A model generated the notes under the pieces. That model did not search any database. It was given only the letters and a program-made list of their open reading frames with translations, and was not told the origin of the DNA. 16,256 bases of DNA, taken from a virus (lineage: Duplodnaviria; Heunggongvirae; Uroviricota; Caudoviricetes). Of this stretch, positions 1-14,633 are shown piece after piece. The position numbers were made by a program, and so were the translations under genes. The stretch's first letter is position 1. Every line of letters begins with the position of its first letter. The DNA lies in IMG/VR virus record IMGVR_UViG_2713896789_000020; one strand, given 5' to 3'.

Positions 1-1284
1 TTACTTCTTCGCCTCTGCAACCACTTTACTACCCACGCCGCGGTTATTGTATTCCCACATGCGGTTGTAGTTAGTGTCATTCAGATTGCGCTGTATTTCG
101 TCGTTATCATCTACGCTGCCGGTATTACCCGCAAACGGACGATTAGAGATCACCGCATCGGCCCACGGTTTAGCCGTGTTAAAACCTTCGTTGATGGCGC
201 TATCACGGATCACCACCTGACCGTTGGTATTGGCATCAACATCCAGCGAGCGGCCCAGTTGCGCCACACCATCACCGAAAGCATTGAAACGGCTGTTTAC
301 GGCGAGGAAACCGTAGTAAATGTTGGACAGCGTAGCCGGTGCAAACACATACGCTTCTTGCTGAGTACGTGAGTTCACCACGCGGAATTCGGTGTTATCG
401 AACACCACTGCGCCGCGACCAGAAACGATATCCACATCCCCTTCAATGTAGCTGTTGGTCACCAGCGTACGCGGCTGACGATTTGTTTCCAGACGGTTCT
501 GCACACCGCTGTTGGTGACAAAGAAGGTGTTCTGACGACCGAGAATGTTAACGTTGTTAATCTGTACCTGGTCACCATCAGTACGCAGTGCCACCGCCGG
601 ATGGTTACCTGCATCTACGCTATCGCCCAGCGTGTTTTCGATGGTCAGATTTTGCAGTTGCAGGCCATTGTTTTGTGACCAGAAGACCGCAGAGCAGAGA
701 ACACCGATACTGTCGCTGCGTTTGCTCTGGCAGCTATCGTACATATACCACGCTGGTTTACCTGGCATATATTTGCCGCGCGGGTTGACGTCGTGACGCC
801 AGTCGGCAGGGCTCATGCCACCATCAAGGGAAAGCCCAATCTTCACATCAATCGGTTTTTCACCTGTACCGTACAGAGTAATTCCACCCGGAGCGGCAGG
901 GACATATACCGTTCCCTGATACTCACCAGGCATCACGGCAATATACTGGCGCTTGTTGGTACGCTTGATAATTGCCGCATCTACCGCCGCCTGAATCGTG
1001 GTATGCGTTACACCTTGAGTGCCCGCCGGGCCGACAACAAAGTCAGGTTGCGCAGGCAGGGTAATCGGGGAAGGATTCCACGCTGCAGCACCTGGTGTCA
1101 GGGATGCAAAATAGTGTTGAGCATCGAAATTCTGCGCTTCTTTTGCCGACAGAATCGGGCGAGAAGAGGTACCAGGCGCGGTTTGATCAGAAGGACGTTG
1201 ATCGGGCGGGGTTGAGCTACAGGCGGTCAGCGTCACGCCAAAAGCCAATGCCAGCGCCAGACGGGAAACTGAAAATGTGTTCAC
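1..1284 (-). CDS. ybhC: YbhC-like outer-membrane lipoprotein (pectinesterase / carbohydrate-esterase family); host gene flanking attB-lambda
   Basis: Complete 427-aa ORF with lipoprotein-type signal peptide (…LTACSS); recognised from the translation as the E. coli gene adjacent to the lambda attachment site; identity from recall, not searched. Confidence 0.85.
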   Translation of the reverse strand: MNTFSVSRLALALAFGVTLTACSSTPPDQRPSDQTAPGTSSRPILSAKEAQNFDAQHYFASLTPGAAAWNPSPITLPAQPDFVVGPAGTQGVTHTTIQAAVDAAIIKRTNKRQYIAVMPGEYQGTVYVPAAPGGITLYGTGEKPIDVKIGLSLDGGMSPADWRHDVNPRGKYMPGKPAWYMYDSCQSKRSDSIGVLCSAVFWSQNNGLQLQNLTIENTLGDSVDAGNHPAVALRTDGDQVQINNVNILGRQNTFFVTNSGVQNRLETNRQPRTLVTNSYIEGDVDIVSGRGAVVFDNTEFRVVNSRTQQEAYVFAPATLSNIYYGFLAVNSRFNAFGDGVAQLGRSLDVDANTNGQVVIRDSAINEGFNTAKPWADAVISNRPFAGNTGSVDDNDEIQRNLNDTNYNRMWEYNNRGVGSKVVAEAKK

Positions 1285-1322: not shown

Positions 1323-1425
1323 TGAAGCCTGCTTTTTTATACTAAGTTGGCATTATAAAAAAGCATTGCTTATCAATTTGTTGCAACGAACAGGTCACTA
1401 TCAGTCAAAATAAAATCATTATTTG
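1323..1425. other. attL: attL (B-O-P'): lambda att core GCTTTTTTATACTAA at 1331-1345, followed by P' arm with IHF-like site (about 1366-1378, tatcaatttgttg) and three arm-type Int sites (about 1392-1421, aggtcactat / cagtcaaaat / aaaatcatta)
   Basis: Exact 15-bp lambda core seen directly; downstream arm matches lambda P' arm as recalled; int stop codon lies inside the P' arm as in lambda. Confidence 0.88.
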
Positions 1426-2489
1426 ATTTCAATTTTGTCCCACTCCCTGCCTCTGTCATCACGATACTGTGATGCCATGGTGTCCGACTTATGCCCGAGA
1501 AGATGTTGAGCAAATTTATCGCTTATCTGCTTCTCATAGAGTCTTGCAGACAAACTGCGCAACTCGTGAAAGGTTGGCGGATCCCCTTCGAAGGAGAGAC
1601 CTGATGCTTTTCGTGCGCGCATAAAATACCTTGATACTGTGCCGGATGAAAGCGGTTCACGACGAGTAGATGCAATTATGGTTTCTCCGCCAAGAATCTT
1701 TTTGCATTTATCAAGTGTTTCCTTCATTGATATCCCGAGAGCATCAACATGCAATGTTGTTGGGATGGCAATTTTTACGCCTGTTTTGCTTTGCTCGACA
1801 TAAAGATATCCATCTACGATATCAGACCACTTCATTTCGCATAAATCACCAACTCGCTGCCCGGTAACAACAGCCAGTTCCATTGCAAGTCTAAGCCAAC
1901 ATGGTGATGATTCTGCTGCTTGATAAATTTTCAGGTATTCGTCAGCCGTAAGTCTTGATCTCCTTACCTCTGATTTTGCAGCGCGAGTGGCTGCGACCGG
2001 GTTTGTTGTTATATGGCCTTCAGCCATAGCCTCTCGGAATGCATCGCTCAGTGTTGATCTGATTAACTTGGCTGATGCCGCCTTTCCCTCGTCTATGTAT
2101 CCATTGAGCATTGCCGCAATTTCTTTTGTGGTGATGTCTTCAAGTGGAGCATCAGGCAGACCCCTCCTTATTGCTTTAATTTTGCTCATGTAATTTATGA
2201 GTGTCTTCTGCTTGATTCCTCTGCTGGCCAGGATTTTTTCGTAGCGATCAAGCCATGAATGTAACGTAACGGAATTATCACTGTTGATTCTCGCTGTCAG
2301 AGGCTTGTGTTTGTGTCCTGAAAATAACTCAATGTTGGCCTGTATAGCTTCAGTGATTGCGATTCGCCTGTCTCGGCCTAATCCAAACTCTTTACCCGTC
2401 CTTGGGTCCCTGTAGCAGTAATATCCATTGTTTCTTATATAAAGGTTAGGGGGTAAATCCCGGCGCTCATGACTTCGCCTTCTTCCCAT
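1419..2489 (-). CDS. int: Lambda integrase (tyrosine recombinase)
   Basis: 356-aa ORF; translation matches lambda Int essentially along its length (MGRRRSHERRDLPPNLYIRNNGYYCYRDPRTGKEFGLGRD…, C-terminal …HLLGHKSDTMASQYRDDRGREWDKIEIK). Confidence 0.97.
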   Translation of the reverse strand: MGRRRSHERRDLPPNLYIRNNGYYCYRDPRTGKEFGLGRDRRIAITEAIQANIELFSGHKHKPLTARINSDNSVTLHSWLDRYEKILASRGIKQKTLINYMSKIKAIRRGLPDAPLEDITTKEIAAMLNGYIDEGKAASAKLIRSTLSDAFREAMAEGHITTNPVAATRAAKSEVRRSRLTADEYLKIYQAAESSPCWLRLAMELAVVTGQRVGDLCEMKWSDIVDGYLYVEQSKTGVKIAIPTTLHVDALGISMKETLDKCKKILGGETIIASTRREPLSSGTVSRYFMRARKASGLSFEGDPPTFHELRSLSARLYEKQISDKFAQHLLGHKSDTMASQYRDDRGREWDKIEIK

Positions 2490-2685
2490 TTCTGATCCTC
2501 TTCAAAAGGCTACCTGTTACTGGTCGATTTAAGTCAACCTTTACCGCTGATTCGTGGAACAGATATTCTCTTCCATCCTTAACCGGAGGAGGGAATATCC
2601 TGCATTCGCGCACCCATCGACGAACTGTTTCAAGGCTTCTTGGGCGTCGCTGGCGAGCGTTCCACTCCTGAAGTGTCAAGTACAT
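2467..2685 (-). CDS. xis: Lambda excisionase
   Basis: 72-aa ORF MYLTLQEWNARQRRPRSLETVRRWV… matching lambda Xis; 3' end overlaps int start as in lambda. Confidence 0.95.
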   Translation of the reverse strand: MYLTLQEWNARQRRPRSLETVRRWVRECRIFPPPVKDGREYLFHESAVKVDLNRPVTGSLLKRIRNGKKAKS

Positions 2686-2974: not shown

Positions 2975-3403
2975 TTATTCAATATCTATTCCTGTAATAT
3001 CTTTTATCTTTTTCCTTGCAAAGCCTTTTGCTAGTGATTTTGAAACACTTATTAGTGTACTAATTCCCTCATCCTTAAAGTTTGTTTTTATAGTTTGCCA
3101 GACCTCCTTTTGACGCAAGTCAGCAATAAAATCATGCCCTCTTGCTGTCAACCTCAGTGGTACTTCGATCCAACTATATCCAACACCTTCCCCTAACTCG
3201 TTGGACATTATATGACCGAACCCAGGTTTTCCATCAACCCTGACTATTAATTCGTAGTCGCATAATAATCGCATATGGAAAATAAAATTTTGGTCATATC
3301 TATTAAAGCCATTATCCTCTAGTTCACTAAGCATCGTGTCAGGGCCATGAGTTTTTTCGAATGCGATAAGTAGATCTTTTAGATATTGCTGGTCTAATTT
3401 CAT
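2975..3403 (-). CDS. Hypothetical cytoplasmic protein, 142 aa, no recognisable family; AT-rich cargo gene
   Basis: Complete ORF with GGAGG Shine-Dalgarno 5 nt upstream of ATG (3403); strongly AT-rich codon usage unlike flanking lambda genes; no signal peptide or TM segment evident. Confidence 0.7.
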   Translation of the reverse strand: MKLDQQYLKDLLIAFEKTHGPDTMLSELEDNGFNRYDQNFIFHMRLLCDYELIVRVDGKPGFGHIMSNELGEGVGYSWIEVPLRLTARGHDFIADLRQKEVWQTIKTNFKDEGISTLISVSKSLAKGFARKKIKDITGIDIE

Positions 3404-3770: not shown

Positions 3771-3966
3771 TCTGCTTTTCCTGCATTAGGAGAAAGACAA
3801 TCATGGCGGCGCGGATACTTCCGGTATCTTTTTACTCGATATTACCCTTCAATGGCACATACAAGAAGAGAGCCATCAACAGGAGTGAGTGAGGAATCGA
3901 CAACCAGCAACGCTTAATTATCTATAGTGTCGTATTTGCTTCATAAAATATGGCGAATAACACAAA

Positions 3967-3998
3967 GCCCGCAGCAGCTCATTGTGCGGGCTTTTCTT
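3967..3998. terminator. Probable bidirectional intrinsic terminator: 7-bp GC-rich stem gcccgca/tgcgggc with 11-nt loop, T-run on plus strand and U-rich tail on minus strand; likely terminates the 204-aa gene
   Basis: Hairpin and flanking A/T runs read directly (aaagcccgcagcagctcattgtgcgggcttttctt). Confidence 0.5.
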
Positions 3999-4063
3999 AT
4001 ACATACTTCCTAGAGATAATTCTATGGAGGCATTAAATTAATACTGTCATTGGTAATATCATA

Positions 4064-4678
4064 TTATCTAAAAGTCTTTCCACTTTTAACGTTTAGGTAT
4101 ATTCTGTTCGACAACGTCATTCCTCCGCAATATGTGAAATAGATGTTTTTCCCCTTATTGCTTGATGCCATCCACCCTCCGATTTCCTTAAAGTCGCTTT
4201 CCGTGCAGACCCCTTCGTTTATTAACTTCCTAGCTGCCGAAGAAAACTCTTTTTTGTATATACGGTAGTCATCAGATCCTTTGATTAAAGTATCATCTCC
4301 GCTCGCATTTTCAGCAGGATCTGATGGCCTTTCACTGCTAAGATCACTAAGTTTAACCCATTCTGAAAACTTGCCATTGACGATTCCGTTTTTTCTTGTG
4401 CAGGATTTATTACCTTCTTTAATATATTCGCTTTCCCCTCCCACACATGAGGCTGAATATGGCTCAGTTATACGAACCCATTCACCTTTTTTTTCTAGAA
4501 AATCTACGCCTTCCCTGAAAAATAGTTTCCCAGCCACTCCACATTTACTTGAAGGGCAGGTATGTCTTTCCGTTCGATCAACAACAACCCAAAGTCTTGA
4601 TTCATTTTTTGCCATTGCCGATGGTATTTGAGATGAGACAATTAACGTAAGCCCTAAAATTAGTATTGATTTTTTCAT
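4064..4678 (-). CDS. Secreted/periplasmic hypothetical protein, 204 aa, with Sec signal peptide, 6 cysteines, and a possible SH3b-like N-terminal domain; AT-rich moron-like gene
   Basis: N-terminus MKKSILILGLTLIVSSQIPSAMA- is a typical signal peptide; AAGGA Shine-Dalgarno 8 nt upstream; segment RLWVVVDRTERHTCPSSKCGVAGKLFFREGVDFLEKKGEWVRI resembles bacterial SH3 pattern (tentative). Confidence 0.75.
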   Translation of the reverse strand: MKKSILILGLTLIVSSQIPSAMAKNESRLWVVVDRTERHTCPSSKCGVAGKLFFREGVDFLEKKGEWVRITEPYSASCVGGESEYIKEGNKSCTRKNGIVNGKFSEWVKLSDLSSERPSDPAENASGDDTLIKGSDDYRIYKKEFSSAARKLINEGVCTESDFKEIGGWMASSNKGKNIYFTYCGGMTLSNRIYLNVKSGKTFR

Positions 4679-4976
4679 TGTAATTTCCTTTTACTTTTTA
4701 CAAAGCGTTTAATCATGGCTGATTATCTTTAAGCGTAGTAACAGCCTTGTGCGAAACATGTTACCAAATCGCCATTTCAGTGTATCCGCAGTTAGGCTGC
4801 CACTTCAAGGATTCCTAATTACATGGTACGTAAGCGTAAAATCCCGTTGGTTGTCGGGTAATAACTCTGATCAAATCTCCCTTGTCTTTTGCTCTTACGT
4901 ATGCAGCTCTTGTGTATTCAACCCAGGCCTCCAGTTCAGCAATACGCTTACTTCCATCCGAGATAACACCTTCTAC

Positions 4977-5228
4977 TCACGCTGCTCGTTGAGTTTTGAT
5001 TTTTGCTGTCTCCAGCTCAACACGCAGTTTCCTCACCGTTAGCGCAATATCCTCGTTCTCCTGGTCGCGGCGTTTGATGTACTGCTGGTTTCTTTCCCGT
5101 TCATCCAGCAGTGTCAGCACAATCGATGGTGTTACCAGCTCATGGAAAAGGTCCGCGTCAAATCCCCAGTTGTCATGCATTGCCTGCTCTGCCGCTTCAC
5201 GCAGTGCCTGAGAGTGAATTACGCTCAC
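4977..5228 (-). CDS. Lambda Ea22-like protein, N-terminal coiled-coil part (83 aa to the first stop); frame continues past an in-frame TGA for 53 more codons to 4818
   Basis: MSVIHSQALREAAEQAMHDNWGFDADLFHELVTPSIVLTLLDERERNQQYIKRRDQENEDIALTVRKLRVELETAK… closely resembles lambda ea22 as recalled; after TGA (4977-4979) the same frame reads VEGVISDGSKRIAELEAW…. Confidence 0.6.
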   Translation of the reverse strand: MSVIHSQALREAAEQAMHDNWGFDADLFHELVTPSIVLTLLDERERNQQYIKRRDQENEDIALTVRKLRVELETAKIKTQRAA

Positions 5229-5382
5229 TTCGAACCTCTCTGTTTACTGATAAGTTCCAGATCCTCCTGGCAACTTGCACAAGTCCGACAACCCTGAACG
5301 GCCAGGCGTCTTCGTTCATCTATNNNNNNNNNNNNNNNNNNNNNNNNNNNNNNNNNNNNNNNNNNNNNNNNNNNNNNNNNNN
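5225..5382 (-). CDS. TraR/DksA-type C4 zinc-finger protein (lambda orf73-like); 5' part hidden by the N-run, so the start is undefined
   Basis: C-terminal readable portion …IDERRRLAVQGCRTCASCQEDLELISKQRGSK carries the second CxxC of a TraR-like zinc finger; upstream part masked by Ns at 5324-5382. Confidence 0.6.
5324..5382. other. Run of 59 N (masked or unresolved assembly gap)
   Basis: Literal n characters in the sequence. Confidence 1.
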
Positions 5383-5420
5383 TGAATTGTTGGTTAATAC
5401 GCTTGAGGGTGAATGCGAAT

Positions 5421-5444
5421 AATAAAAAAGGAGCCTGTAGCTCC
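5421..5444 (-). terminator. Putative intrinsic terminator (minus strand): stem ggagc/gctcc with 5-nt loop, followed on the minus strand by a U-run
   Basis: Plus-strand aataaaaaaggagcctgtagctcc read directly; lies between the 71-aa ORF and the TraR-like gene. Confidence 0.45.
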
Positions 5445-5466
5445 CTGATGATTTTGCTTTTCATGT

Positions 5467-5682
5467 TCACCGTTCCTTAAAAACGCCGTTTAACATGCCG
5501 ATTGCTAGACTTAAATGAGTCGGTGTGAATCCCATCAGCGTTACCGTTTCGCGGTGCTTCTTCAGTACGCTACGGCAAATGTCATCGACGTTTTTATCCG
5601 GAAACTGCTGTCTGGCTTTTTTGATTTCAGAATTAGCCTGACGGGCAATGCTGCGAAGGGCGTTTTCCTGCTGAGGTGTCAC
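5467..5682 (-). CDS. Small hypothetical protein of the lambda early-left cluster (71 aa from GTG; VTPQQENALRSIARQANSEIKKARQQFPDKNVDDICRSVLKKH…)
   Basis: ORF open from 5748, but the first 22 codons overlap the upstream 27-aa ORF; the GTG at 5682 overlaps that ORF's TGA stop (GTGA), suggesting the coupled start; lambda has ATG at the equivalent position as recalled. Confidence 0.5.
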   Translation of the reverse strand: MTPQQENALRSIARQANSEIKKARQQFPDKNVDDICRSVLKKHRETVTLMGFTPTHLSLAIGMLNGVFKER

Positions 5683-5950: not shown

Positions 5951-6105
5951 ACAGCCCCTCGTTTATTATTTATCTCCTCAGCCAGCCGCTGTGCTTTCAG
6001 TGGATTTCGGATAACAGAAAGGCCGGGAAATACCCAGCCTCGCTTTGTAACGGAGTAGACGAAAGTGATTGCGCCTACCCGGATATTATCGTGAGGATGC
6101 GTCAT
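5923..6105 (-). CDS. Small hypothetical protein, 60 aa (lambda orf60a-like), start overlapping exo stop
   Basis: [29 protein letters not shown]…; ATG at 6105 immediately follows the exo stop (6102-6104). Confidence 0.55.
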
Positions 6106-6743
6106 CGCCATTGCTCCCCAAATACAAAACCAATTTCAGCCAGTGCCTCGTCCATTTTTTCGATGAACACCGGCACCATCTCGTCAAAACTCGCCATGTA
6201 CTTTTCATCCCGCTCAACCACGACATAATGCAGTCCTTCACGCTTCATACGCGGGTCATAGTTGGCAAAGTACCAGGCATCTTTTCGTGTCACCCACATG
6301 CTGTACTGCACCTGGGCCATGTAAGCCGACTTTATGGCCTCGAAACCACCGAGCCGGAACTTCATGAAATCCCGGGAGGTAAACGGGCATTTCAGCTCAA
6401 GGCCATTGCCGTCACTGCATAAACCATCGGGAGAGCAGGCGGTGCGCATACTTTCGTCGCGATAGATGATCGGGGATTCAGTAACATTCACGCCGGAAGT
6501 GAATTCAAACAGGGTTCTGGCGTCGTTCTCGTACTGTTTTCCCCATGCCAGCGCCTTAGCATTAACTTCCGGAGCCACACCGGTGCAAACCTCAGCCAGC
6601 AGGGTGTGGAAGTAGGACATTTTCATGTCAGGCCACTTCTTTCCTGAGCGGGGCTTGGCTATCACGTTGTGAACTTCTGAAGCGGTGATGACGCCGAGCC
6701 GTAATTTGTGCCATGCATCATCCCCCTGTTCGACAGCTCTCAC
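6102..6743 (-). CDS. exo: Lambda exonuclease (Red-alpha), 5'-truncated: lacks the native first ~13 codons and ATG; the frame upstream reads …NHPICVT before a stop, resembling a Bet fragment
   Basis: 213 aa from an internal GTG match lambda Exo from residue ~14 to the C-terminus (…GFVFGEQWR); in-frame stop at 6783-6785 upstream; no ATG. Confidence 0.9.
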
Positions 6744-7380: not shown

Positions 7381-7941
7381 ATGAAGAAGATAATATTATT
7401 AGCCATGATTATTGGTTCTTTAACAGGTTGCGCTAGTGTGCCACCATTGAATTTTTCAACACCTAACGTGGGAGTTAGCCAGAAAAAAATAGATGCTGAA
7501 ATTAAGTCATTAACGGTATCACTTGCTCGTCCAGATGAGCAGAAAGGGGATATCACTGCTGGTATGGAGGCTATAACTCCAATTTGGCGTGAATCTTTGC
7601 AGGAAGCACTCGACCGAATGACTATTTTTCGTGATAGTTCACCAAATACGGTTAGCTTAAATGTTAAAGTGTTGGCTCTTGACGTTCCTGCTTTTGGTGT
7701 TTCAATGACAACTAAAGCAATTGCAAGGTATGAAATAATCAACCGTGCGAATGGTGATATTATATATACGCAGGATATTGAGTCTACCGGTACTGTTCCA
7801 GCCAGTTACGCATTCTACGGTATTGTTCGAGCACGCGAATCTGTTAATCGCGCGGTGCAAAACAACATAACGCAGTTCTTGCAAGCATTAGAAAGTGTTG
7901 ATCTTTCTCGTCCAATGTTTCCTGTTAGGGTAGCTAAATGA
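7381..7941 (+). CDS. Lipoprotein of unknown function, 186 aa (lipobox LTGC)
   Basis: MKKIILLAMIIGSLTGCASV… signal peptide plus lipobox; AAGGT Shine-Dalgarno; stop overlaps the next gene start (ATGA at 7938-7941); AT-rich. Confidence 0.8.
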   Translation: MKKIILLAMIIGSLTGCASVPPLNFSTPNVGVSQKKIDAEIKSLTVSLARPDEQKGDITAGMEAITPIWRESLQEALDRMTIFRDSSPNTVSLNVKVLALDVPAFGVSMTTKAIARYEIINRANGDIIYTQDIESTGTVPASYAFYGIVRARESVNRAVQNNITQFLQALESVDLSRPMFPVRVAK

Positions 7942-8390
7942 AGCGATTATTCGTAATTGCTCCACTCTTAGTGTTGGTTGGATGCGCACAAAATATATCG
8001 CCAAATAGTTATTCTGTTGGCTCTGTGGGCATGGTTAATCGAACTATCGCTGGTACAGTTATTAGTGCTAGGGGGGTTGATATCAGTGGGACTTCCGCGT
8101 TAGGCGGGACTGCTGGGGCTGCCGTGGGGGCAACCGCTGGTTCTGCGCTTGGTGGGGGAGTTCGTTCTAATATCGTTGGTGCCGTTGGTGGTGCAGTCAT
8201 TGGTGGTATTGCCGGGGCAGCAATCGAATCTTCAGCAACAAAACAAACAGGCATGGAATATGTTGTCGAAACTGAGAATGGGAATTTAATGACCATTGTT
8301 CAAGGCAAAGATCCGTTATTTACTCAAGGAAGTAAGGTCCTTGTTTTATACGGAAACCCTTCTCGCATAATAACAGACCCGCGTCACTAA
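7938..8390 (+). CDS. SlyB-like outer-membrane lipoprotein with glycine-zipper domain, 150 aa (lipobox LVGC)
   Basis: Signal peptide plus lipobox, then Gly/Ala zipper region (GGTAGAAVGATAGSALGGGVRSNIVGAVGGAVIGGIAGAAI) and a C-terminal module resembling SlyB/Pcp (…MEYVVETENGNLMTIVQGKDPLFTQGSKVLVLYGNPSRI); from recall of SlyB. Confidence 0.85.
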   Translation: MKRLFVIAPLLVLVGCAQNISPNSYSVGSVGMVNRTIAGTVISARGVDISGTSALGGTAGAAVGATAGSALGGGVRSNIVGAVGGAVIGGIAGAAIESSATKQTGMEYVVETENGNLMTIVQGKDPLFTQGSKVLVLYGNPSRIITDPRH

Positions 8391-10642: not shown

Positions 10643-11725
10643 TTAGAACTGGTAAACCATACCTACAGCAACGATATCATCGGTAGCAACGCCAGATGCT
10701 TTCGTGAAATCGCTCTTATCAATCAGGTTGATTTTGTAATCAACAAAAGTGGACATATTTTTGTTGAAGTAATAGGTTGCACCTACATCAATATATTCAA
10801 CCAGGTCCTGATCACCCCACGCACCCAAGTCTTTTCCTTTAGATTGCAGGTAAGCAACGGACGGACGCAGACCGAAGTCGAACTGATATTGTGCAACTAC
10901 TTCGAAGTTTTGTGCTTTGTTGGCAATATGGTTATTACCAAAAACAGTCATGTTCTGGGTTTCAGAATAGGTGGTAGCCAGATAGATGTTGTTCGCATCA
11001 TATTTCAGACCAGCTGCCCATACTTCAGCATTTTGACCAGATGCATTCAGGCTGTTGTTACCGTAGATAACCTGATTATTAGTGCGGTCAGATTTAGCAT
11101 AGGTTGCACCTACACCGAATCCTTCATACTCATAAGTAGTGGAGAAACCGAAACCATCACCATTAGCTTCAGTTACGTCAGTGCGGTCATTTTTACCCTG
11201 ATACTGAGCAGCAAAGTTCAGACCATCAACCAGACCAAAGAAGTCATTGTTACGATAAGTTGCAACACCTGTGGTGCGACCAGTCATGAATACATCTGTT
11301 TGGGTCCAGGTATCGCCACCGAATTCTGGCAGAACGTCGGTCCATGCACCAATATCGTATGCTACACCGTAGTTACGGCCATAATCGATGGAGCCGTAGT
11401 CACCGAATTTCAGGCCAGCGAAGGCAAGACGGGTTTTATCTTTGGAGGAACCTTGAGATTCAGCGCGGTTGCCTTTGAATTCATATTCCCACTGACCGAA
11501 ACCAGTCAGTTGATCGTTGATTTGGGTTTCACCTTTGAAGCCAAGACGGGCATAAGTAGTATCACCATCATCTGCATCATTAGAGGAGAAGTAGTGCTTA
11601 GCATTAACTTTCCCGTACAGATCCAGCTTGTTACTGTCTTTATTATAAATTTCAGCTGCCTGAGCAGACATCGCCATCAGTACTGATGCAGCTACAGCAG
11701 AAATTGCCACTGTTAATTTTTTCAT
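10643..11725 (-). CDS. nmpC: Prophage-encoded general porin of the OmpC/OmpF/PhoE family (NmpC/Lc-like), 360 aa, apparently intact
   Basis: Signal peptide [23 protein letters not shown]; porin signature regions (LDLYGKV…, …[14 protein letters not shown]…), C-terminal …VAVGMVYQF; position between Q and the lysis genes as in DLP12/PA-2. Confidence 0.93.
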
Positions 11726-13515: not shown

Positions 13516-13809
13516 TTATTGTGAGCAATACACACGCGCTTCCAGCGGAGTATAAATGCCTAAAGTAATAAAACCGAGCAATCCATTTACGAATGTTTGC
13601 TGGGTTTCTGTTTTAACAACATTTTCTGCGCCGCCACAAATTTTGGCTGCATCGACAGTTTTCTTCTGCCCAATTCCAGAAACGAAGAAATGATGGGTGA
13701 TGGTTTCCTTTGGTGCTACTGCTGCCGGTTTGTTTTGAACAGTAAACGTCTGTTGAGCACATCCTGTAATAAGCAGGGCCAGCGCAGTAGCGAGTAGCAT
13801 TTTTTTCAT
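13516..13809 (-). CDS. bor: Bor serum-resistance outer-membrane lipoprotein, 97 aa
   Basis: MKKMLLATALALLITGCAQQTFTVQNKPAAVAPKETITHHFFVSGIGQKKTVDAAKICGGAENVVKTETQQTFVNGLLGFITLGIYTPLEARVYCSQ matches lambda Bor. Confidence 0.95.
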   Translation of the reverse strand: MKKMLLATALALLITGCAQQTFTVQNKPAAVAPKETITHHFFVSGIGQKKTVDAAKICGGAENVVKTETQQTFVNGLLGFITLGIYTPLEARVYCSQ

Positions 13810-14099: not shown

Positions 14100-14633
14100 T
14101 TAGCGTGGAAAGATTTGTGTAGTGTTCTGAATGCTCTCAGTAAATAGTAATGAATTATCAAAGGTATAGTAATATCTTTTATGTTCATGGATATTTGTAA
14201 CCCATCGGAAAACTCCTGCTTTAGCAAGATTTTCCCTGTATTGCTGAAATGTGATTTCTCTTGATTTCAACCTATCATAGGACGTTTCTATAAGATGCGT
14301 GTTTCTTGAGAATTTAACATTTACAACCTTTTTAAGTCCTTTTATTAACACGGTGTTATCGTTTTCTAACACGATGTGAATATTATCTGTGGCTAGATAG
14401 TAAATATAATGTGAGACGTTGTGACGTTTTAGTTCAGAATAAAACAATTCACAGTTTAAATCTTTTCGCACTTGATCGAATATTTCTTTAAAAATGGCAA
14501 CCTGAGCCATTGGTAAAACCTTCCATGTGATACGAGGGCGCGTAGTTTGCATTATCGTTTTTATCGTTTCAATCTGGTCTGACCTCTTTGTGTTTTGTTG
14601 ATGATTTATGTCAAATATTAGGAATGTTTTCAC
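14100..14633 (-). CDS. Hypothetical protein, 177 aa, AT-rich; cos-proximal gene, likely DLP12 YbcV / DUF1398-like
   Basis: Complete ORF; family assignment from position and recall only. Confidence 0.6.

What the first reader, a model, noticed from the sequence alone, without database searches (positions are those of the whole stretch)
4064..4678. Monocistronic moron encoding a 204-aa secreted Cys-containing protein with a possible SH3b-like domain
Clear Sec signal peptide, six cysteines (potentially three periplasmic disulfides), its own Shine-Dalgarno and a downstream bidirectional hairpin terminator (3967-3998). An N-terminal stretch resembles bacterial SH3 domains, which often bind peptidoglycan. 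A periplasmic prophage product like this could modify the envelope or block incoming phage.
Basis: partly seen in the sequence, partly recalled or inferred. Interest (0 to 1): 0.5.

Follow-up and report, generated by a model that had tools for sequence, protein, structure and literature searches.

The report
Prophage moron: exported SH3b wall-binding protein
A small self-contained gene cassette in a defective lambda-like E. coli prophage encodes an exported, disulfide-bonded protein made of a cell-wall-binding SH3b domain and a previously undescribed second domain. Its promoter appears to have been borrowed from the RNAI gene of a ColE1-type plasmid, and its biological role is still unknown.

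Summary
ORF 4064-4678 (-) encodes 204 aa with a Sec-type signal peptide, six conserved cysteines, an AAGGA Shine-Dalgarno and a downstream hairpin (3967-3991).

- **Mobile unit:** about 860 nt (≈4825 to 3960) recurs in an E. fergusonii phage-plasmid with unrelated flanks. The gene is under strong purifying selection (dN/dS 0.09).
- **Promoter:** the upstream 116 nt is about 80% identical to the RNAI promoter plus the first ~70 nt of RNAI in small ColE1-type plasmids, in the gene's orientation. The TTGAAG-N18-TACACT architecture is kept and the RNAI terminator is lost.

"Monocistronic moron" is therefore supported, with an unexpected promoter origin. No partner gene is conserved and no defence or immunity family matches. 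The most likely function is a periplasmic peptidoglycan-tethered protective or binding factor; this is inferred, not shown.

The parts
4709..4824 (-). Segment homologous to the ColE1-type RNAI promoter plus about the first 70 nt of RNAI
   Evidence: blastn gives ~80.5% identity over 116 nt (E 1e-17) to about 140 small E. coli ColE1-type plasmids. In plasmids L050 and L052 the matched stretch overlaps Rfam RNAI RF00106, in the same orientation as the gene. It is also conserved in the E. fergusonii copy at ~80%, while synonymous sites differ by 46%.
4803..4808 (-). -35 hexamer TTGAAG of the RNAI-derived promoter
   Evidence: Invariant in alignment A8 across window, E. fergusonii and three plasmids; the spacer varies. 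The match is 8 of 12 to the sigma-70 consensus, so it fell below the scan tool's 9 of 12 threshold.
4779..4784 (-). -10 hexamer TACACT, 18-nt spacer from the -35
   Evidence: Invariant in A8. In L050 the Rfam RNAI 5' end lies 9 nt downstream of this hexamer.
4679..4772 (-). Predicted 5' UTR of ~94 nt (start inferred by homology at ~4770-4772), with RNAI-like stem-loop 1 and a shortened stem-loop 2 and no stem-loop 3 or terminator
   Evidence: The fold gives the same stem-loop 1 shape and CGCACAA loop as RNAI of p2D-6. The Rfam RNAI model does not score it. The transcription start is inferred, not mapped.
4685..4689 (-). Shine-Dalgarno AAGGA, 6 nt upstream of the ATG
   Evidence: Sequence read; conserved in the E. 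fergusonii copy.
4064..4678 (-). ORF of 204 aa (WP_000748284.1, 'hypothetical protein'; phrog_8310)
   Evidence: dN/dS is 0.089 against the E. fergusonii copy. There are 81 homologous 90%-identity clusters.
4610..4678 (-). Signal peptide, residues 1-23, predicted cleavage after A-M-A
   Evidence: Sequence features. Low pLDDT for residues 1-25. Relatives carry signal peptides, lipoboxes or a membrane anchor at this position.
4343..4600 (-). SH3b domain, residues ~27-112, with a Cys-rich insert (~78-97) carrying C78 and C93; C41 and C46 lie in the preceding loop
4067..4339 (-). C-terminal domain, residues 114-204 (core ~129-204): three helices followed by a three-stranded sheet, with invariant C158 and C184; signature S-D-D, G-G-W, Y-F-x-Y-C-G-G
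3956..3995 (.). Intrinsic-terminator-like hairpin (arms 3985-3991 and 3967-3973) flanked by an A-run and a T-rich run; marks the 3' end of the cassette
   Evidence: The stem is conserved in the E. fergusonii copy amid unrelated flanking sequence.

Best explanation
This is a horizontally mobile, single-gene expression cassette (a moron) of about 860 nt inside a defective lambda-like prophage at attB-lambda.

**Shown or directly supported**
- The cassette has sharp homology boundaries.
- Its upstream 116 nt descends from the RNAI promoter and the 5' two-thirds of RNAI of a ColE1-type plasmid. The RNAI terminator is missing, so transcription from that promoter would run into the ORF.
- An AAGGA Shine-Dalgarno precedes the ATG, and a hairpin terminator closes the unit.
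- The product is a preprotein with a Sec-type signal peptide.
- The mature ~181-aa protein has an SH3b fold and a second, undescribed alpha/beta domain.
- All six cysteines are conserved.

**Inferred**
- The RNAI-derived promoter is active and constitutive, so the gene is expressed from the prophage without pL or N, both of which this prophage has lost.
- The protein is exported and cleaved after Ala23, then oxidised in the periplasm to up to three disulfides: two in the SH3b insert and C158-C184 in the C-terminal domain.
- The SH3b domain tethers the protein to peptidoglycan.
- The C-terminal domain is a binding module rather than an enzyme. It is rich in conserved Trp, Tyr, Asp, Asn and Ser and has no catalytic-type His or nucleophile pattern. 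It would engage a second ligand, either the glycan or an incoming muralytic protein.
- The net effect would be envelope-level protection of the carrier cell. The most likely form is exclusion of superinfecting phages or neutralisation of wall-degrading attackers.
For: **Anatomy:** (ORF, Shine-Dalgarno).

**Export and disulfides**
- conserved cysteines; export signals interchange between signal peptide, lipobox and membrane anchor across 39 relatives.

**Domains**
- the C-terminal domain is a separate module with no known relative. It is always C-terminal and extracytoplasmic, and occurs alone, duplicated, or behind SH3b with varied N-terminal anchors.

**Autonomy of the cassette**
- homology with the E. 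fergusonii phage-plasmid copy runs only from ~4825 to ~4055, plus the terminator stem.
- dN/dS 0.089 and dS 0.71, while the upstream non-coding 145 nt stays ~80% identical.
- the upstream segment matches the RNAI promoter and 5' RNAI of ColE1-type plasmids in the gene's orientation. Hexamers and the 18-nt spacing are invariant, the spacer is variable, and stem-loop 3 and the terminator are absent.
- a 5.3-kb ColE1-type plasmid carries a 64% homologue ~350 nt downstream of its RNAI, in the same orientation.
- GC is lower than in the flanks.
- lambda lacks the cassette, and only 1 of 50,697 phage records has it.
- this prophage lacks bet through P, and therefore pL and N, yet the ORF is intact.
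- IS-flanked fragments on IncA-type plasmids keep the gene intact.

**Solitary cargo on many mobile elements**
- Contexts seen: prophage early-left region, a Q-to-holin region in Aeromonas, integrase islands in Pseudomonas, an IS-rich region, and small and large plasmids.
- No conserved neighbour across loci.
Against: - No expression, localisation or binding data exist. No paper mentions the protein.
- The promoter matches the sigma-70 consensus at only 8 of 12 positions and was not flagged by the scan. Its activity is argued from homology with RNAI promoters only.
- In phage Chlobot the gene is co-oriented with the pL operon, so it need not depend on its own promoter.
- The hairpin's stability is only modestly better than shuffles (z = -2.1).
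- No match to any PADLOC defence model, NCBIfam model, or known lysozyme-inhibitor or immunity family.
- At least one relative sits between housekeeping genes (metW and pheT), which argues that the family's role is not restricted to mobile-element conflicts.
- Peptidoglycan binding by this SH3b domain is assumed from its fold neighbours.
Confidence: 0.55

Rival explanations
1. Orphan immunity or inhibitor protein. The C-terminal domain directly inhibits a peptidoglycan-degrading toxin (a T6SS amidase or muramidase, a colicin M- or pesticin-type bacteriocin, or host lysozyme), and the SH3b domain places it at the wall. Mobile elements spread it as stand-alone protection.
For: - It is periplasmic, small and disulfide-bonded, and occurs as a stand-alone signal-peptide-plus-C-terminal-domain protein.
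- It is solitary cargo on plasmids, including a 5.3-kb ColE1-type plasmid, and sits beside pyocin S/immunity clusters in a Pseudomonas island.
Against: - No toxin gene is a conserved neighbour in 45 loci.
- No Pfam match to Ivy, MliC/PliC, PliG, PliI or known T6SS immunity families.
- An integrase gene separates the gene from the pyocin clusters.
Confidence: 0.17
2. Host-physiology factor. A wall-associated scaffold or regulator tunes endogenous peptidoglycan remodelling, envelope stability, vesiculation or a trans-envelope machine, in the way TagV supports the T6SS. This would give a general fitness or colonisation benefit rather than defence.
For: - TagV of Serratia marcescens is a lipoprotein with an SH3b domain plus a small disulfide-stabilised C-terminal domain, is DsbA-dependent, and serves a trans-envelope machine (PMC7614798).
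- Some relatives are chromosomal lipoproteins among housekeeping genes.
- The family spans Proteobacteria, Acidobacteriota, Campylobacterota, Latescibacterota and Bacteroidota.
Against: - No conserved association with any machine or hydrolase gene.
- In Enterobacteria the gene is rare (129-156 of 5,426 complete E. coli genomes) and always on mobile DNA, the pattern of accessory conflict genes.
Confidence: 0.15
3. Not an autonomous moron in function. It is an ordinary delayed-early gene of the pL operon that acts during lytic growth, for example conditioning the wall before lysis or blocking secondary adsorption. The RNAI-like sequence would then be an inert recombination scar.
For: - In the intact phage Chlobot the gene lies between exo/DksA-like genes and xis-int, on the pL-transcribed strand.
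- The RNAI-like element is not recognised by the Rfam model.
- The promoter is a weak consensus match.
Against: - The upstream element is far better conserved (~80%) than synonymous sites (54% identical) between two contexts, with invariant hexamers and a variable spacer.
- The ORF stays intact in a prophage without pL or N and in IS-bounded plasmid fragments.
- A terminator directly follows the gene.
- The same gene sits in a late-region slot in an Aeromonas prophage and outside phages altogether.
Confidence: 0.08

Closest known systems
Bacterial SH3 (SH3b) cell-wall-binding domains: Pfam SH3_3 PF08239; lysostaphin SH3b; endolysin binding domains; SH3b of YkfC-type NlpC/P60 endopeptidases
   Different: - No catalytic partner domain is attached.
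- The domain carries a ~20-residue insert with four conserved cysteines.
- The host is a diderm, so the target would be periplasmic peptidoglycan.
- The window protein itself scores below the Pfam gathering score.
- Ligand binding is untested.
TagV, T6SS accessory lipoprotein of Serratia marcescens (PMC7614798)
   Same: Both are extracytoplasmic proteins of a Gram-negative bacterium built from an SH3b-like domain plus a small disulfide-stabilised C-terminal domain. TagV is reported to be DsbA-dependent and proposed to bind peptidoglycan.
   Different: - TagV's C-terminal domain is a ~27-residue three-strand element, not a ~90-residue alpha/beta domain.
- TagV is encoded inside T6SS clusters, whereas this gene is solitary on mobile elements.
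- Sequence homology was not tested.
Lambdoid phage morons such as lambda bor and lom and the HK97/HK022 morons (own knowledge: Juhala et al. 2000; Hendrix et al. 2000)
   Same: A single extra gene with its own promoter and terminator, atypical GC, present in some but not other closely related phages, and encoding an envelope protein.
   Different: - It is located in the early-left (ea/b) region rather than the late region.
- The promoter is recognisably derived from a plasmid RNAI gene; I found no paper describing such a case.
- Expression from the lysogen is not demonstrated.
Envelope-level superinfection-exclusion proteins: T4 Spackle (periplasmic inhibitor of the gp5 tail lysozyme; own knowledge), T5 Llp and phi80/N15 Cor lipoproteins (Llp: bioRxiv 10.64898/2026.03.26.714494), P22 SieA (PMC10883804)
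   Same: Small, single-gene, phage-encoded proteins that act in the envelope without a partner gene. They are exported or lipid-anchored.
ColE1-type antisense RNA I (Rfam RF00106) and its promoter
   Same: About 80% identity over 116 nt, covering the promoter (TTGAAG-N18-TACACT) and about the first 70 nt of RNAI in small E. coli plasmids. Stem-loop 1 has the same loop sequence, and the orientation is the same as the gene.
   Different: - Stem-loop 3 and the terminator are missing, so the element is not an RNAI gene.
- The Rfam model does not score it.
- It is chromosomal and prophage-borne, and is fused to a protein-coding gene as its leader.

Membership tests
SH3b (Pfam SH3_3, PF08239) | Profile match at or above the curated gathering score | tested here: inconclusive
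   The window protein scores 16.2 bits against a cut-off of 27, E = 0.012. 30 of 39 relatives match at E<=0.01 (best 1.5e-8), and some fusion relatives pass the cut-off (P0094, 30.8 bits).
SH3b (Pfam SH3_3, PF08239) | SH3-like small beta-barrel fold resembling solved bacterial SH3 domains | tested here: met
SH3b (Pfam SH3_3, PF08239) | Binding of peptidoglycan or another cell-wall ligand | not testable with these tools
   Needs sacculus pull-down or muropeptide titration.
Sec-exported protein with a type I signal peptide | Basic n-region, hydrophobic h-region, small residues at -3/-1 of the cleavage site | tested here: met
   MKK / SILILGLTLIVSS / QIPSAMA|K, read. Relatives carry signal peptides, lipoboxes or a membrane anchor at the same position. 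No dedicated predictor was available.
Sec-exported protein with a type I signal peptide | Actual export and cleavage | not testable with these tools
   Needs PhoA/BlaM fusion, fractionation, or N-terminal mass spectrometry.
Phage moron (autonomous extra transcription unit) | Present in some, absent from other, closely related phage genomes, with sharp boundaries | tested here: met
   Homology to lambda ends at ~4930. Only phage Chlobot among 50,697 records has the cassette. Boundaries at ~4825 and ~3960 are defined by the E. fergusonii copy.
Phage moron (autonomous extra transcription unit) | Own promoter upstream | tested here: inconclusive
   TTGAAG-N18-TACACT is homologous to plasmid RNAI promoters and is conserved with a variable spacer. 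It is only an 8 of 12 consensus match and was not flagged by the scan. No transcript data.
Phage moron (autonomous extra transcription unit) | Terminator downstream | tested here: met
   GC-rich hairpin followed by a T-rich tract. It is conserved in the E. fergusonii copy, where a T7 run follows it.
Phage moron (autonomous extra transcription unit) | Base composition different from neighbours | tested here: met
   GC 0.38-0.41 over 4001-4800 against 0.47-0.49 on both sides.
Phage moron (autonomous extra transcription unit) | Expression from the repressed prophage | not testable with these tools
   Needs RNA-seq or reporter assays in a lysogen.
ColE1 RNAI (Rfam RF00106) | Covariance-model score at or above gathering; three stem-loops plus terminator | tested here: not met
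   No hit at gathering or at E<=10 on the 221-nt region. The fold keeps stem-loop 1 and a short stem-loop 2 only. It is a truncated derivative, not an RNAI gene.
ColE1 RNAI (Rfam RF00106) | Sequence homology to the RNAI promoter and 5' region | tested here: met
   80.5% identity over 116 nt, E 1e-17, to plasmid stretches that Rfam calls RNAI.
Known anti-phage defence systems (PADLOC-DB 2.0) | Match to any defence protein model | tested here: not met
   No family at E<=1.
Cognate toxin-immunity pair (T6SS, bacteriocin) | Conserved adjacent toxin or effector gene | tested here: not met
   No neighbour cluster is shared across genera in 45 loci. Only integrases recur, within Pseudomonas islands and E. 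coli.
PHROG 8310 (unknown function) | Full-length profile match | tested here: met
   E 2e-135, residues 1-204 against profile positions 1-204.

The most novel reading that the evidence does not exclude
The protein would be the founding member of a new class of single-gene periplasmic protection. An SH3b anchor fixes a previously undescribed disulfide-locked domain to peptidoglycan, where it neutralises the wall-piercing enzymes of incoming phages, tailocins or T6SS attackers.

In addition, its RNAI-derived leader, which keeps stem-loop 1 with the loop sequence of resident ColE1-type plasmids, could pair with plasmid RNAII. The prophage would then also interfere with, or sense, small plasmids.
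Probability: 0.15. Interest if true: 0.75.

Novelty: new variant of a known kind. Interest (0 to 1): 0.5.

Why it matters
- **The protein and its family:** morons are the main route by which temperate phages change host phenotype, yet most remain "hypothetical". This one is a clean, portable 860-nt unit with a confidently modelled two-domain exported product. One domain is a wall-binding SH3b. The other defines a widespread family (at least 532 clusters at 50% identity) with no Pfam model or solved structure. That makes it a tractable target for discovering a new periplasmic binding or inhibitor module.
- **The promoter:** its origin shows that a plasmid copy-control gene can be recycled as the expression signal of a phage cargo gene. 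This is concrete evidence of plasmid-phage gene flow, with a testable side effect on ColE1-type plasmids.
- **If the protein blocks phage entry or wall-degrading toxins:** it would add an envelope-level, single-gene mechanism to the defence repertoire. It would also be relevant to phage-therapy host-range prediction, since it is present in about 2-3% of complete E. coli genomes and on multidrug-resistance plasmids.

Tried and rejected
- **PDB sequence searches.** With the whole protein the only hit was a phage head-closure protein at E = 1.3, which is noise. With the C-terminal-domain profile the hits were de novo designed TIM barrels at E ~1e-8. Each hit is four weak repeats (each with E ~20) summed, so I rejected them as a repeat artefact.
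- **Family libraries.** NCBIfam and PADLOC gave nothing. Pfam on stand-alone C-terminal-domain proteins at E<=10 gave only noise.
- **Conserved-neighbour analysis over 48 loci.** No partner gene was found. A bulk Pfam scan of neighbours was abandoned because naive ORF calls in high-GC genomes were unreliable.
- **LexA-box search.** This was prompted by the umuD neighbours. CTGT-N8-ACAG with one mismatch occurs at chance level and not near the gene.
- **Rfam on the window.** No family was found, and the truncated RNAI is not detected.
- **Terminator hairpins downstream of relatives.** They are not a general feature outside the Escherichia cassette.
- **Upstream-region conservation beyond Escherichia.** None.
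- **The search for related loci with the wide alignments.** It failed for lack of a conserved 7-10-mer; a narrower alignment worked.
- **Literature.** No paper mentions the protein accessions. None of the ten best-ranked titles and abstracts from an RNAI/ColE1/moron/prophage search describes an RNAI-derived moron promoter.
Full report
**Setting**

The window is E. coli chromosome carrying a lambda-like prophage at attB-lambda. From left to right it holds:
- ybhC at 1-1284 (-)
- integrase at 1419-2489 (-)
- excisionase at 2467-2685 (-)
- a DUF2513 gene at 2975-3403 (-)
- the ORF in question at 4064-4678 (-)
- an ea22 fragment, DUF1382 and exo (YqaJ, 6102-6743)

Two lipoprotein genes then lie directly before ninB (8581). 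bet, gam, kil, cIII, N, cI, cro, cII, O and P are therefore all missing. The prophage is defective and has no pL/N system.

**The observation**

- The 204-aa ORF, its AAGGA Shine-Dalgarno 6 nt before the ATG, and the downstream hairpin are all present at the stated coordinates.
- The hairpin's arms are at 3985-3991 and 3967-3973, flanked by an A-run and a T-rich run.
- The N-terminus (MKK, then a 13-residue hydrophobic core, then QIPSAMA|K) has the canonical features of a type I signal peptide.
- The six cysteines are real and conserved: C158 and C184 in all 39 aligned relatives, and C41, C46, C78 and C93 in at least 90%.
- The hairpin folds only modestly better than shuffles (-19.2 kcal/mol, z = -2.1). 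Its stem recurs in an otherwise unrelated 3' flank elsewhere, which is stronger evidence than the energy.

**The protein**

RefSeq calls it a hypothetical protein (WP_000748284.1). It matches PHROG 8310 (unknown function) end to end. It matches no NCBIfam or PADLOC model and no PDB sequence.

A database search found 81 clusters of relatives. They occur in E. coli, E. fergusonii (88% identity), Pseudomonas and Aeromonas (60-68%) and many metagenomes (down to 35%).

Every relative begins with a type I signal peptide, a lipobox, or in one case a cytoplasmic zinc ribbon plus a membrane helix. This interchange of export devices is strong comparative evidence that the body of the protein works outside the cytoplasm.

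An AlphaFold model built on the family alignment is confident: mean pLDDT 90.5, and 96-98 from residue 30 onward.

Pfam SH3_3 is sub-threshold for the window protein but hits 30 of 39 relatives. Residues ~27-112 are therefore a genuine SH3b domain. It carries a ~20-residue insert. The two most distant relatives lack this insert together with all four N-terminal cysteines, which suggests that those four form two disulfides bracing the insert.

*C-terminal domain.* Residues ~114-204 fold as a separate unit of short helices, an 18-residue helix, another helix and a three-stranded sheet (pLDDT 84 when modelled alone).
- A profile search of 1.84 billion representatives found 532 clusters at E<=1e-3 and 398 at E<=1e-10.
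- The domain is always C-terminal.
- It occurs alone behind a signal peptide or lipobox, duplicated, or behind SH3b.
- The SH3b-plus-domain core can be extended N-terminally by a zinc ribbon plus membrane helix, by ankyrin repeats, or by other periplasmic segments.
- Across 228 unique sequences the signature is S-D-D, F, L, C (99%), G-G-W, S, Y-F-x-Y-C (99%)-G-G, N, Y-L, G.
- The pattern is aromatic and acidic or amide residues around one disulfide, with no catalytic-looking His or nucleophile arrangement. I read this as a binding module; that is an inference.

**The transcription unit**

In the complete lambdoid phage Chlobot (98% aa identity) the gene lies in the distal early-left region. 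The order is N ... kil, gam, recT, exo ... DksA-like, [gene], xis, int, all on the pL-transcribed strand. Read-through from pL is therefore possible in an intact phage. Four lines of evidence show that the gene is also a self-contained cassette.

1. *Sharp boundaries.* An 88%-identical copy sits in an 88-kb E. fergusonii phage-plasmid in a completely different neighbourhood. Homology between the two contexts starts at window ~4825, 145 nt upstream of the ATG. It runs through the ORF and collapses after the stop codon, except for the terminator stem.
2. *Selection.* The coding sequence is under strong purifying selection (dN/dS 0.089) with saturating synonymous divergence (pS 0.46, dS 0.71). 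The 145-nt non-coding leader is still ~80% identical, so it is constrained.
3. *Composition.* GC is 0.38-0.41 in the cassette against 0.47-0.49 on both sides.
4. *Distribution.* Lambda's homology ends inside ea22 at ~4930, and only 1 of 50,697 phage records has the cassette.

**Where the promoter came from**

A sensitive blastn of the cassette against complete E. coli genomes produced an unexpected class of hits. About 140 small (1.7-5.8 kb) ColE1-type plasmids match window 4824-4709 at ~80% identity (E 1e-17). In two of these plasmids, read in full, the matched stretch overlaps what Rfam scores as RNAI (RF00106, 76-80 bits), in the same orientation as the gene.

The alignment shows the following:
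- The window retains TTGAAG (4808-4803), an 18-nt spacer and TACACT (4784-4779). These are invariant in all five sequences, while the spacer varies.
- They are the hexamers I know as the ColE1/pBR322 RNAI promoter; that identification is own knowledge.
- About 70 nt of RNAI follow. They include stem-loop 1 with the same CGCACAA loop, and a shortened stem-loop 2.
- Homology ends before stem-loop 3 and the RNAI terminator. It is replaced by AAAAAGTAAAAGGAAATTACA-ATG.

A polymerase starting at the RNAI promoter, at ~4770-4772 by homology, would therefore transcribe a ~94-nt leader and the ORF and stop at the hairpin. The Rfam model does not score this truncated element even at E<=10. It is a relic, not an RNAI gene.

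A plausible source arrangement exists. A 5.3-kb ColE1-type plasmid of Citrobacter braakii carries a 64% homologue ~350 nt downstream of its RNAI, in the same orientation. A deletion in such a plasmid, followed by capture, would create the fusion. The consensus scan missed the promoter because it matches at 8 of 12 positions, below the tool's cut-off. Its activity here is inferred from homology, not measured.

**Distribution and context**

| Where | What was found |
|---|---|
| Complete E. coli genomes | Full cassette in 129 of 5,426 (156 with any match) |
| Large plasmids of E. coli, Klebsiella, Enterobacter, Citrobacter | Same lambda fragment, bounded by IS and Tn elements |
| Aeromonas prophage | Gene between the Q antiterminator and the holin |
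| Pseudomonas islands | Gene directly after an integrase |
| Metagenome contig | Gene among IS elements |
| Metagenome contigs (two related) | Gene between umuD-like and umuC-like genes |
| One environmental genome | Gene between metW and pheT |

A scan of one genome per species found 33 loci, from Proteobacteria to Acidobacteriota, Campylobacterota, Latescibacterota and Bacteroidota. Clustering all neighbouring ORFs of 48 loci found no partner shared across genera. The gene works alone.

**Mechanism**

*Shown or directly supported:* the anatomy, the SH3b fold, the second domain, comparative evidence for extracytoplasmic location, purifying selection, the cassette boundaries, and the RNAI-derived upstream element.

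*Inferred:*
- constitutive transcription from that promoter;
- Sec export, cleavage after Ala23 and DsbA-type oxidation;
- tethering to peptidoglycan through SH3b;
- a second ligand for the C-terminal domain.

My best guess is a periplasmic, wall-anchored protective factor. It would act as exclusion of superinfecting phage by blocking tail-associated muralytic enzymes, or as neutralisation of wall-degrading toxins. The reasons are that it is a solitary, strongly conserved, exported cargo gene. It hops between prophage accessory slots, islands and small plasmids, and it stays intact in decaying prophages.

The rivals are an orphan immunity or inhibitor protein, a physiological wall scaffold like TagV (PMC7614798), and a plain pL-operon lytic-cycle gene. 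None can be excluded computationally.

**Comparison and novelty**

- The SH3b half is a member of a well-known fold class.
- The cassette fits the moron concept.
- The closest architectural analogue is TagV: SH3b plus a small disulfide-stabilised C-terminal domain in a Gram-negative lipoprotein. TagV's second domain and genomic context differ, and homology was not tested.
- Not previously described, as far as the searched literature shows: the ~90-residue C-terminal domain family, and the use of a truncated ColE1 RNAI gene as promoter and leader of a phage cargo gene.

I therefore class the finding as a new variant of a known kind. Interest is moderate: the anatomy is clean and testable, and the function is open.

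Noticed in passing
window 3803-3913 (-); L049 2350-2742; L012 4019-4486 and 5140-6411: The gene recurs next to SOS-mutagenesis genes.
- About 50 nt past the terminator, the window holds a 37-codon fragment with an in-frame stop. It is 76% identical to residues 46-82 of the S24 (UmuD/HumD-like) peptidase that lies directly upstream of the gene in the E. fergusonii phage-plasmid.
- PGAP calls this fragment a partial 'DNA repair protein', and the Chlobot annotation calls it 'UmuD-like'.
- A 48% homologue sits between umuD-like and umuC-like genes in two related metagenome contigs.

This may record the recombination history of the cassette or a shared accessory slot. No LexA box lies near the gene.
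   Followed up: partly
window 7381-7941 (+) and 7938-8390 (+): Two overlapping lipoprotein genes (186 and 150 aa; the second has a glycine-zipper match, PF05433, E 3e-4) lie in a low-GC stretch (0.32-0.41). They occupy the place where bet through P, including the immunity region, should be, between exo and ninB. This looks like a second envelope-protein cargo insertion in the same defective prophage.
   Followed up: partly
window 5324-5382: A run of 59 N (masked or unresolved sequence) interrupts the region between the ea22 fragment and the next early-left ORFs. ORF calls across it (5111-5422, 5225-5470) are unreliable.
   Followed up: no
window 10643-11725 (-), 13516-13809 (-), 14100-14633 (-): Other cargo-like genes lie in the late region:
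- a prophage-borne OmpC/NmpC-type porin, annotated 'porin OmpC' in the matching RefSeq record;
- a 97-aa lipoprotein after the lysis genes that I recognise as Bor-like (own knowledge, not tested);
- a DUF1398 protein.
   Followed up: no
E. coli genome hits H1/H47, H55, H58 (e.g. NZ_CM173849.1 1744574-1746451): In a few E. coli genomes the cassette region matches in two pieces separated by an IS1 element, and the annotation shows two 'hypothetical protein' pieces. The gene or its flank has therefore been disrupted by IS1 in some lineages. The exact insertion point was not examined.
   Followed up: no
L002 8806-9432 and homologues in L003, L004: In Pseudomonas integrase islands the gene is followed by a conserved 208-aa ORF of unknown function. 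Its only Pfam signal is a weak, sub-threshold Cloacin tRNase-domain match (E 0.017). A KilA-N protein lies further on. The association is confined to closely related islands.
   Followed up: partly
window 4749-5042 (+): A 97-aa ORF on the opposite strand overlaps the RNAI-like leader and the ea22 fragment. The Chlobot annotation calls it a hypothetical protein. It is probably spurious, since it spans a recombination junction and non-coding promoter sequence.
   Followed up: no
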